From: a virus
Virus record (IMG/VR): IMGVR_UViG_3300042691_023183
Location: 62,839 to 126,838 of that record
DNA length: 64,000 nt
Reading direction: 5' to 3' (one strand)
Below the pieces are notes generated by a model, which was given only the letters and a program-made list of their open reading frames with translations, searched no databases and was not told the DNA's origin. Both the position numbers and the translations under genes were made by a program. The stretch's first letter is position 1, and each line of letters opens with the position of its first letter. Positions 53,084 to 53,374 of this stretch are shown piece after piece.

Positions 53084-53374
53084 TGGAGCTAAGGGACGGT
53101 TCGTTATCCATCTACAACAGGTTGATCCGATAACCATTCCGGTGTCCTGTGTTCTATCCCAATTCATCCATTGGTTATTACAAATGACTGGAGGCGTATT
53201 ACTCGCACTCTCCTCAGCATTAAAATTGTTGCCCATTTTTGTCGCAGTGTAAAGTGACTGGAACCATTATCACTTGGGCGGCACTGTCTGGTTGAGTTGA
53301 GGAAACACTGATTAAACTTCCACGCCTCCCGGCTTTCACCGATCACAGGTAGCACGTTCCTTGTTTACCAACTC
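53084..53374 (-). ncRNA. Unidentified ~290-nt multi-helix structured RNA
   Basis: Nested long-range helices (GAGTT/AGCTC, CCTGTG/CACAGG, GGAGGCGT/ACGCCTCC, TCCTCA/TGAGGA, GCCCA/TGGGC, AAGTGA/TCACTT, GTTATC/GATAAC), CGGT-GAAA-GCCG hairpin, raised GC. Confidence 0.7.

What the first reader, a model, noticed from the sequence alone, without database searches (positions are those of the whole stretch)
53084..53374. Unannotated ~290-nt multi-helix ncRNA tandem with the tRNA mimic
Seen: a GC-enriched gap in a gene-dense genome with many nested helices on the minus strand. These are a closing stem GAGTT/AGCTC plus AAGG.ACG/CGT.CCTT, CCTGTG/CACAGG, a GNRA hairpin CGGT-GAAA-GCCG, GGAGGCGT/ACGCCTCC next to a possible GAA/AGUA loop-E motif, TCCTCA/TGAGGA, GCCCA/TGGGC, AAGTGA/TCACTT and GTTATC/GATAAC. 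CAGTG/CACTG might form a pseudoknot or an alternative pairing. The RNA ends in CTCCA, about 11 nt before the tRNA mimic begins. I cannot match it to RNase P, tmRNA, 6S, SRP or a complete group I/II intron. Inference: a new large structured phage RNA, perhaps released by tRNA-type processing.
Basis: partly seen in the sequence, partly recalled or inferred. Interest (0 to 1): 0.85.

Follow-up and report, generated by a model that had tools for sequence, protein, structure and literature searches.

The report
Three phage small RNAs, not one
The supposed 290-base RNA of this uncultured freshwater giant phage is really three separate small RNA modules in a row, one of them a 135-base transfer-RNA look-alike, belonging to a swappable set of phage RNAs whose job is still unknown.

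Summary
The gap 53084-53374 (minus strand) is real non-coding RNA sequence with no Rfam match. It is not one 290-nt RNA.

Relatives show three independent modules:
- A leader hairpin, 53374-53294.
- "M1b", 53291-53229, a 63-nt pseudoknot candidate.
- "MD", 53218-53084, a 135-nt cloverleaf-like RNA. Its own 7-bp acceptor stem (GCUGAGG/CCUUAGC) is followed by an encoded UCCA.

MD occurs in 45 of 45 sources searched, beside at least six different upstream and five different downstream neighbours. Four of its seven acceptor pairs show compensatory changes, while its core is almost invariant.

They compete with MD's proven stem and are no better than chance (114 of 1000 shuffles).

The modules share AU-rich spacers (CCA|AUUUU) with true tRNA genes in relatives' arrays. 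All three modules appear in contigs of RNA libraries.

Their function is unknown; a tRNA-end decoy role is a low-confidence guess. The closest known RNAs are phage T4 rnaC and rnaD.

This scan found the same RNA-cassette class before on other DNA (e1-6060531, e1-6077221, e1-5391472).

The parts
53294..53374 (-). Leader hairpin module (81 nt). It runs from 5' GAGUUGG to CCUCAACUC 3' and contains the CGGU-GAAA-GCCG hairpin.
   Evidence: It folds on its own with z = -2.06. Among DNA loci it is found only in the near-identical L105, at 98.8%. Other arrays begin with different leaders that keep the same GAGUUG...CAAYUY closing stem just after a promoter. An RNA-library contig covers 53301-53367 at depth 66.6.
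53229..53291 (-). M1b module (63 nt, CCAGACAGUGCC...AUGGGCAA). Candidate H-type pseudoknot: CAGUG/CACUG and GCCCA/UGGGC around the hairpin AAGUGA/UCACUU, with an A-rich third loop.
   Evidence: It is 95-98% identical in other loci but in different positions. It lies directly before MD (L071, L095, L097, L102, L105, L082), after MD (L082, L085, L094), or directly before the tRNA mimic (L067, L112, L115). It is fused to at least three different 5' domains. Its three variable sites all lie in predicted loops. It has the highest depth in all four RNA libraries laid, up to 229.5. On its own the fold is not unusually stable (z = -0.2).
53219..53228 (-). AU-rich spacer and 5' leader of MD (CAAUUUUAAU).
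   Evidence: The same (C)AAUUUU[U/A]AU precedes G1 of MD in nearly all homologues, whatever module lies upstream. Homology to relatives starts here.
53084..53218 (-). MD module: a 135-nt cloverleaf-like tRNA look-alike. Elements: acceptor stem 53218-53212 with 53094-53088; U73 at 53087; CCA at 53086-53084; D-like hairpin 53209-53192; long hairpin 53191-53159; anticodon-stem analogue with inner hairpin 53152-53114; T-like hairpin 53112-53095.
   Evidence: Covariance model R1 finds 45 matches in 45 sources at 125-171 bits. Of cells, 96.5% are paired. Acceptor helix: 4 of 7 pairs changed on both sides; 0 of 500 shuffles reach the covariation score; slid controls give 0-1 such pairs. UCCA does not vary. 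R1 aligns end to end with T4 tRNA-Thr at 16.4 bits. RNA-library contigs cover it in 3 of 4 runs.
53069..53083 (-). AU-rich spacer after the CCA (AUUUUUAGUUCUUUG).
   Evidence: CCA followed by AUUU... stands after MD in all homologues with held 3' flank except L072 and L089, which read CCA-UUUUUUU. CCA followed by a U-rich spacer also stands after true tRNA genes of relatives: after L067 tRNA-Asn (CCA-AUUUUU), after L067 tRNA-Arg (CCA-UUUUAA) and after the tRNA-Asp of L086 (CCA-CUUUUG).
52942..53068 (-). Downstream tRNA mimic, a separate finding (e1-6151780). It is the third unit of the same row.
   Evidence: Rfam tRNA scores 23.7 bits, below the 29-bit cut-off, with a 70-nt insertion in place of the anticodon arm. 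Copies at 78-96% identity occur in L065 (two), L067 (two), L085, L094 and L105, and in L112 and L115, read from the printed sequence.

Best explanation
The stretch is the 5' two-thirds of a short operon of small stable RNAs. It runs leader hairpin, M1b, MD, then the tRNA mimic. Its members are cassettes that related freshwater giant phages share and reshuffle inside their tRNA-gene arrays.

Shown:
- The modules are independent units.
- MD closes on itself with a 7-bp acceptor stem followed by an encoded U-CCA.
- MD has a cloverleaf-like order of arms: acceptor, D-region hairpins, an anticodon-stem analogue whose loop is replaced by a hairpin, a 4-nt variable region, and a T-like arm.
- The core sequence is almost invariant while the acceptor stem covaries.
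- The modules are present in contigs of RNA libraries.

Inferred (about 0.6): the row is transcribed from the sigma-70-like promoter of the upstream 65-aa gene, or from a weak one at the leader. It is then cut like a tRNA operon. An RNase E-type cut falls in the AU-rich spacer after CCA, RNase P cuts at G1 of MD, and the 3' end is trimmed back to CCA. This would release about 145-nt leader-M1b, 135-nt MD and the tRNA mimic as separate stable RNAs.

Guess (about 0.2): MD keeps the acceptor/CCA end but lacks an anticodon loop and canonical D and T loops. It would therefore act not in decoding but as a tRNA-end mimic. It might occupy or divert enzymes that recognise tRNA acceptor ends, such as host tRNA-targeting defence enzymes or the phage's own RNA-repair enzymes.

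The confidence given (0.7) is for the composite, separately folding, tRNA-operon-type reading, not for the decoy guess.
For: Module independence:
- Only window 53230-53078 matches L063/L065, L064 and L066, at 94-96%.
- The leader is found only in L105.
- M1b is found before MD, after MD, or without MD.
- MD has at least six different upstream and five different downstream neighbours.

MD structure:
- RNAalifold gives a five-helix cloverleaf-like fold.
- On 45 sequences (19 distinct), the acceptor helix has 4 of 7 pairs with both-sided changes: C-G/U-A, U-A/C-G/U-G, A-U/G-U/G-C, G-C/G-U/A-U.
- 0 of 500 shuffles reach the observed covariation score. 7 of 500 reach the count of covarying pairs. 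Slid controls give 0-1.
- The T-like stem shows a compatible U-A/U-G change.
- UCCA is invariant.

Constraint:
- In L105 the RNA modules are 96-99% identical in nucleotides. The flanking ligase is 70.7% and the downstream 65-aa ORF 72% identical in amino acids.

tRNA context:
- True tRNA genes sit in the same arrays with the same kind of spacer. These are L067 Asn and Arg, and tRNA-Asp in 7 of 49 loci, 132 nt upstream of MD in L086.
- R1 aligns globally to T4 tRNAs.

RNA:
- Contigs of four metatranscriptome runs from three studies cover the modules. M1b reaches depth 229.5, MD 38.2 and the leader 66.6. Homology breaks fall at module borders: 53291-53294, 53222-53229, 53080 and 52940.

Promoter:
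- TTGACT-16-TAGGAT with a TG extension lies at 53616-53589. No terminator is called between it and the RNAs.
Against: - No end mapping exists. The laid data are contigs, which cannot show RNA ends or strand, and DNA carry-over in RNA libraries cannot be excluded.
- MD's T-like loop (AUAACGAA, 8 nt) and D-like loop lack the canonical UUC and GG, so RNase P recognition is assumed, not shown.
- Internal helices 2, 4 and 5 never vary, so they are neither supported nor refuted. Pairs 30:58 and 31:57 of helix 3 are unpaired in 8 of 19 distinct sequences.
- MD's fold is only mildly more stable than shuffles (z -1.2 to -1.6).
- No canonical tRNA gene is in the held 126.8 kb of this phage.
- MD is absent from 16 of 18 related phage records searched, including one rated 100% complete (G001, which carries a ligase homologue). 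It is therefore dispensable.
- Adjacency to the Rnl1-type ligase is seen only here and in L105, that is 1 of 53 other array-bearing loci, many of them short. None of 60 ligase loci carries these RNAs. A ligase link is therefore weak.
- No stretch of 13 nt or more complementary to the held genome was found.
- Nothing tests the decoy idea.
Confidence: 0.7

Rival explanations
1. One large (~290-nt) structured RNA closed by GAGUU/AGCUC, with long-range helices between its 5' and 3' halves.
For: All the complementary segments exist and are nested in a consistent antiparallel order. The near-identical L105 keeps the whole arrangement.
Against: - The 3' half occurs in 43 other DNA sources without this 5' half.
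- Its 3' strand pairs with its own 5' strand, with compensatory changes.
- The MFE of the whole stretch uses local module folds, not the long-range helices, and z is +0.10.
- Leader-MD complementarity is matched by 114 of 1000 shuffles.
Confidence: 0.04
2. Decaying tRNA genes: MD and its neighbours are non-functional remnants of tRNA genes in a shrinking tRNA array.
For: - There is no anticodon loop and no canonical D or T loops. Rfam tRNA does not score MD.
- No true tRNA is left in the held genome.
- The row sits in a hypervariable island between a conserved 170-aa gene and the ligase.
- MD is missing from most related records.
Against: - The core of MD is almost invariant. 115 of 136 columns never vary in 45 sequences from different genomic contexts, while neighbouring coding DNA is about 80% identical.
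- The acceptor stem is kept by compensatory changes.
- The modules are well represented in RNA libraries.
Confidence: 0.08
3. Small protein genes: ORFs 53164-53355 (63 aa, GTG start) or 53054-53236 (60 aa, ATG start) are the real features.
For: Neighbouring genes are also about 65 aa. Frame 0 of MD is open in 9 of 16 distinct full-length variants.
Against: - An in-frame TAG falls at the second codon of MD in 7 of 16 variants, including the closest relative L105.
- The ATG lies in M1b, which is not upstream of MD in most loci.
- Substitutions show no third-position bias (6/8/7) and cluster as paired changes in a stem.
- The 60-aa ORF runs across the spacer into the tRNA mimic.
Confidence: 0.02
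4. MD exists, at least in part, as a unit-length circular RNA, for instance with its ends joined by an RNA ligase such as the neighbouring Rnl1-type enzyme. Alternatively it is carried as tandem MD-MD copies in some phages.
For: - Two RNA-library contigs from two studies join MD's 3' end back to its 5' end.
- X16: a 167-nt contig, 53224 joined to 53085, with ends overlapping as in a ~140-nt circle.
- X17: 53084, then 10 other letters, then 53218.
- None of the 44 DNA contigs found with the MD core motif holds two copies.
- An earlier follow-up on a related array also noted possibly circular unit-length forms (e1-6077221). That is the same kind of data, not independent proof.
Against: - Both contigs have low depth (3.5 and 4.2) and carry 2-6 differences from the window, so they come from relatives whose DNA arrangement is unknown.
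- The two joints differ, and neither is a clean G1-A76 ligation.
- Assembly graphs make such cycles from tandem repeats.
Confidence: 0.1

Closest known systems
Phage T4 small stable RNAs rnaC (species 1, 139 nt) and rnaD (species 2, 119 nt) of the tRNA gene cluster
   Same: - They are non-tRNA RNAs of similar size encoded in a row with phage tRNA genes. In the T4 record they lie directly after tRNA-Arg.
- By eye in the sequence, rnaC has a canonical T arm (CCGGG-UUCGAAU-CCCGG). The fold shows that hairpin and paired ends.
- Their roles are still unknown (passage read in PMC3014915).
   Different: - There is no sequence or model similarity. R1 does not hit rnaC or rnaD.
- MD has a non-canonical 8-nt T-like loop and an encoded CCA.
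- Here the RNAs form a large, reshuffled cassette repertoire rather than two fixed genes.
Canonical tRNA (Rfam RF00005)
   Same: - 7-bp acceptor stem, single discriminator base and encoded CCA.
- The T-like hairpin stacks directly on the acceptor 3' strand.
- A 2-nt linker follows the acceptor 5' strand.
- A 5-bp stem lies 4 nt before the T-like arm.
- R1 aligns globally with T4 tRNA-Thr, tRNA-Leu and tRNA-Gly.
   Different: - 135 nt long, with no 7-nt anticodon loop.
- The D region is replaced by two hairpins (51 nt).
- There is no GG or UUC loop signature.
- It does not score with Rfam tRNA or ARAGORN.
Phage 'operons of stable structured RNAs' noted earlier in this scan (e1-6060531, e1-5391472, e1-6077221)
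   Same: - Same habitat type and the same cassette behaviour.
- The same closest-known RNAs were named.
- e1-6060531 shares 21 of 25 short words with MD.
   Different: - Those are longer rows (4-10 units) on other genomes.
- Here the row is reduced to three or four units and lies next to an RNA ligase gene.
Bacterial Y RNA-like YrlA / Rsr (Ro60) system
   Same: A tRNA-like non-coding RNA encoded near RNA-repair ligase genes. Jumbo phages sometimes carry TROVE proteins with a tRNA-like partner (passage read in PMC7824862).
   Different: - No TROVE protein is in the held genome, although the control genomes do ring.
- There is no Rfam YrlA hit on the window.
- From recall: in YrlA the ends lie in the Ro-binding stem, not in the acceptor stem.

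Membership tests
tRNA (RF00005) | Score at or above the Rfam gathering cut-off (29 bits), or an ARAGORN call | tested here: not met
   There is no hit on 53084-53374 even at E <= 10. ARAGORN finds 0 genes in the window.
tRNA (RF00005) | 7-bp acceptor stem followed by a discriminator base and CCA | tested here: met
   GCUGAGG/CCUUAGC plus U plus CCA. 4 of 7 pairs covary and UCCA is invariant.
tRNA (RF00005) | 7-nt anticodon loop, and canonical D loop (GG) and T loop (UUCRA) | tested here: not met
   Read from the sequence and the consensus fold. The loops are AGUAAUA, AAUAACCA, AAUGGUUA and AUAA[C/A]GAA.
T4 rnaC/rnaD-type small stable RNAs of phage tRNA clusters | Non-tRNA RNA gene lying in a row with phage tRNA genes | tested here: met
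   This is met in relatives: tRNA-Asp lies 132 nt upstream of MD in L086, and tRNA-Asn and tRNA-Arg lie in the L067 array. In this window's own held genome there is no true tRNA.
T4 rnaC/rnaD-type small stable RNAs of phage tRNA clusters | Sequence or structure homology to rnaC or rnaD | tested here: not met
   R1 run with filters off on the T4 tRNA region hits tRNAs but not rnaC or rnaD.
T4 rnaC/rnaD-type small stable RNAs of phage tRNA clusters | Accumulates as a discrete, processed, stable RNA | tested here: inconclusive
   The modules are present in contigs of 4 RNA libraries, but contigs cannot show ends or level.
tmRNA | ARAGORN or Rfam tmRNA call; tag reading frame; G3-U70 pair | tested here: not met
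   There is no call. Pair 3:70 is U-A, C-G or U-G, never G-U.
Large phage-associated RNAs and ribozymes in Rfam (GOLLD, ROOL, raiA, group I/II introns, RNase P, 6S, self-cleaving ribozymes) | A covariance-model match | tested here: not met
   No family matches at gathering score on 64 kb. The only match at E <= 10 on 53084-53374 is the Tetrahymena snoRNA model RF02288 (20.9 bits against a 70-bit cut-off); none of the families named in this row matches. Related arrays also give nothing.
Y RNA (YrlA) with Rsr | A TROVE-domain partner protein and a YrlA model match | tested here: not met
   PF05731 gives 0 matches in the held 126.8 kb, which is only 36% of the genome. There is no YrlA hit on the window.

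The most novel reading that the evidence does not exclude
MD and its sister cassettes would be an exchangeable RNA arsenal. They would be cut out by the host's own tRNA-processing enzymes. MD would partly be closed into unit-length circles by a phage RNA ligase. These anticodon-less tRNA-end mimics would soak up or mislead host immune enzymes that attack tRNA acceptor or CCA ends or anticodon loops, so that RNA itself, not protein, is the counter-defence.
Probability: 0.12. Interest if true: 0.85.

Novelty: new variant of a known kind. Interest (0 to 1): 0.5.

Why it matters
Phage T4's two small stable RNAs from its tRNA cluster remain without a known role (PMC3014915, passage read).

This locus shows that uncultured freshwater giant phages carry many such RNAs. 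They are conserved more tightly than the neighbouring genes, traded like cassettes, and present in environmental RNA libraries.

MD gives a concrete, testable member. It has a proven acceptor stem, an encoded CCA, an invariant core and no anticodon.

Learning what binds it would address an old open question about why phages keep tRNA look-alikes that cannot decode. For this particular finding, the main result is a correction: one "large new RNA" is really three small ones.

Tried and rejected
- Rfam at gathering score on the window, sensitive scans and scans of related arrays gave no usable family. The TtnuCD11 and SNORD37 matches are chance.
- ARAGORN on the window, the whole held genome and 30 ligase loci gave nothing at this locus.
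- blastn (distant mode) of 551 bases against 50,697 phage records gave no match.
- I looked for the RNAs next to the ligase in 60 related loci by blastn and nhmmer. There were no matches beyond 13-24-nt chance words.
- A TROVE/Y-RNA link was tested: 0 matches in the held genome.
- An antisense target was sought in the held genome: no complementarity longer than 12 nt, best E = 0.44.
- A functional link to the ligase by conserved adjacency is not supported.
- The CCAAU/AUUGG hairpin in MD was rejected, because changes in L065 and L066 break it.
The C-to-A change breaks its first pair in 6 of 16 distinct sequences.
- RNA-library cover: the flanking ORFs have no cover. This means nothing, because the contigs come largely from relatives with different flanks.
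- The 8,495 candidate RNAs predicted from IMG/VR in PMC10690425 (passages read) may include MD. The supplement is closed, so I could not check.
- Paper searches listed no description of these cassettes. I read only listings and the passages cited.

Full report
**What is at the site**

On the minus strand, the 65-aa gene 53579-53382 is followed by a gap without a convincing ORF. Next come a tRNA-like element at 53068-52942, another 65-aa gene, and a T4 Rnl1-type RNA ligase gene (Pfam RNA_lig_T4_1, E = 1.2e-15).

The window is part of a 126.8-kb virus record rated 36% complete, so it is a fragment of a giant phage. DNA runs that hold the stretch are mostly labelled freshwater or lake metagenomes.

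The gap is slightly GC-richer than its flanks. Rfam finds nothing at gathering score and only chance-level matches in sensitive mode. ARAGORN finds nothing.

However, the 291-nt stretch folds no better than shuffled sequence (z = +0.10).

**Relatives break the stretch into modules**

- Sixty loci with a ligase homologue (49-75% amino-acid identity) carry none of this RNA. In them, the space between a conserved 170-aa gene and the ligase is variable.
- Searching with the upstream 65-aa protein gave L062 and L063. In L063 only the 3' half of the stretch (53229-53070) matches, at 94%. The tRNA mimic occurs there twice, more than 250 nt further on.
- Motif scans of IMG/VR and of metagenome contigs gave 3, 2, 5 and 41 stretches.
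- From these the units are:
  - a leader hairpin, 53374-53294;
  - M1b, 53291-53229;
  - a spacer, CAAUUUUAAU;
  - MD, 53218-53084;
  - a spacer;
  - the tRNA mimic.
- The leader recurs only in L105, a near-identical relative.
- M1b lies directly before MD in 7 of the 45 MD-bearing sources (counting the window), after MD in 3, and directly before the tRNA mimic with no MD in L067, L112 and L115.
- MD has at least six different upstream and five different downstream neighbours.
- The arrays of relatives are long rows of such units. Each is separated by (C)CA|AUUUU-type spacers and often headed by sigma-70-like promoters.
- True tRNA genes sit in the same rows with the same kind of spacer. These are tRNA-Asn and tRNA-Arg in L067, and tRNA-Asp in 7 of 49 loci, 132 nt upstream of MD in L086.

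**MD**

- An alignment of four copies already showed an invariant core and a variable stem. RNAalifold gave a cloverleaf-like fold.
- The arms are:
  - a 7-bp acceptor stem, GCUGAGG/CCUUAGC;
  - a 2-nt linker;
  - a D-like hairpin;
  - a long hairpin;
  - a stem ACAGG/CCUGU carrying an inner hairpin;
  - a 5-bp T-like stem with an 8-nt loop stacked on the acceptor strand;
  - then U and CCA.
- A covariance model (R1) found 45 matches in 45 sources. Of these, 42 are full length and 3 are cut by contig ends.
- On the 19 distinct sequences:
  - 96.5% of cells are paired;
  - the acceptor helix has 4 of 7 pairs with changes on both sides;
  - no shuffle of 500 reaches the covariation score;
  - partner-slid controls give 0-1 covarying pairs.
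- Helices 2, 4 and 5 never vary, so they are untested. Two pairs at the base of helix 3 are unpaired in 8 of 19.
- UCCA never varies.
- Run against the T4 tRNA region, R1 aligns end to end with tRNA-Thr (16.4 bits). It places ACAGG/CCUGU on the anticodon stem. MD is therefore tRNA-shaped, but it has no anticodon loop and no canonical D or T loops.
- It is not coding:
  - a TAG interrupts the only open frame in 7 of 16 distinct variants;
  - substitutions show no codon-position bias.

Five of the ten helices pair the leader with MD. They use MD's acceptor strands, D-like arm, helix 4 and T-like stem. MD keeps those segments in 43 other sources that lack this leader.

Leader-MD duplex energy is matched by 114 of 1000 shuffles, and cofolding gains nothing over shuffles. 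The minimum-energy fold of the whole stretch also uses local module folds. These helices are therefore coincidental.

The helices inside M1b and the GNRA hairpin in the leader remain plausible. M1b's three variable sites lie in predicted loops, but there is no covariation to test them.

**Expression**

Contigs of four metatranscriptome runs from three studies cover:
- M1b, in all four runs, at depth up to 229.5;
- MD, in three runs, at depth up to 38.2;
- the leader, in one run, at 66.6;
- the tRNA mimic, in one run.

Their homology to the window breaks at the module borders. Contigs show presence in RNA libraries. They do not show ends, strand or level.

Two low-depth contigs from two studies join MD's 3' end back to its 5' end. 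None of the 44 DNA contigs found by the core motif has two MD copies. This is a hint of circular or tandem forms that I could not resolve.

**Mechanism**

The shared spacers, the acceptor-plus-CCA end and the company of true tRNA genes make tRNA-operon-type processing the best reading. From recalled knowledge of bacterial tRNA maturation, that means an RNase E-type cut after CCA, an RNase P cut at G1, and 3' trimming.

Function is open. The core is far more conserved than neighbouring genes. In L105 the RNA modules are 96-99% identical, against 70.7% amino-acid identity for the ligase. That argues for a sequence-specific partner.

The ligase adjacency is not conserved. No TROVE partner is found, and no antisense target is found in the held genome. 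A tRNA-end decoy role is a guess.

**Comparison and novelty**

The closest described RNAs are T4 rnaC and rnaD. They are 139 and 119 nt, lie right after tRNA-Arg, and have unknown roles (PMC3014915, passage read). They share no sequence or model similarity with MD.

A large screen predicted thousands of structured RNAs, some tRNA-like, from IMG/VR (PMC10690425, passages read). Its supplement is closed, so MD may already be listed there.

Earlier notes of this scan describe the same class of reshuffled RNA rows on other genomes. One of them shares 21 of 25 short words with MD. I reached the composite reading before seeing those notes, and they agree with it.

**Verdict**

This is a real but mis-drawn feature. 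It is a new variant of the known kind "phage tRNA-cluster stable RNAs".

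Noticed in passing
window 53084-53224 (minus strand), RNA runs X16 and X17: Two RNA-library contigs from two studies join MD's 3' end back to its 5' end. One joins 53224 to 53085 directly, in a 167-nt contig whose ends overlap like a ~140-nt circle. The other runs 53084, then 10 other letters, then 53218. This could be a circular RNA or tandem copies in relatives. No tandem MD is seen in 44 DNA contigs.
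   Followed up: partly
window 53573-53627 (minus strand); L065 at about nine places: A roughly 50-nt promoter-plus-start block (GTTGACTT...TGGTAGGATATACCCACGATG) recurs before many small genes of this phage group. This fits one early promoter per small gene.
   Followed up: no
L105 1152-3994 against window 53579-51581: There is a mosaic boundary. The upstream 65-aa gene and the RNA modules are 96-99% identical to the window. The downstream 65-aa gene (72% aa) and the ligase (70.7% aa) are much more diverged.
   Followed up: partly
window 53134-53131 with 53106-53103 (minus strand): The loop of MD's inner hairpin (GUUA) is complementary to the T-like loop (UAAC). This could be a 4-bp loop-loop contact, reminiscent of a tRNA elbow. 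The G-C pair is lost in 6 of 16 distinct variants.
   Followed up: partly
L065 7400-8700; L108 2500-5300; L094 5600-8300: Relatives carry rows of up to about ten different stem-closed or tRNA-like units. Several have canonical T arms (GGTTCAAATCC, GGTTCAATTCC) but are not called as tRNAs by ARAGORN.
   Followed up: partly
one locus among L062-L110 (name not printed by my script), 2013-2085: ARAGORN calls an odd tRNA with a two-letter anticodon, 'tRNA-??? (ca)', in one array locus.
   Followed up: no
window 50799-51344 and 55321-55803 (minus strand): A fatty-acid-hydroxylase-family protein (E = 4.7e-12) and a Macro-domain protein (E = 1.1e-8) flank the RNA and ligase region.
   Followed up: no
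L082 161-527: One metagenome contig has M1b on both sides of MD.
   Followed up: no
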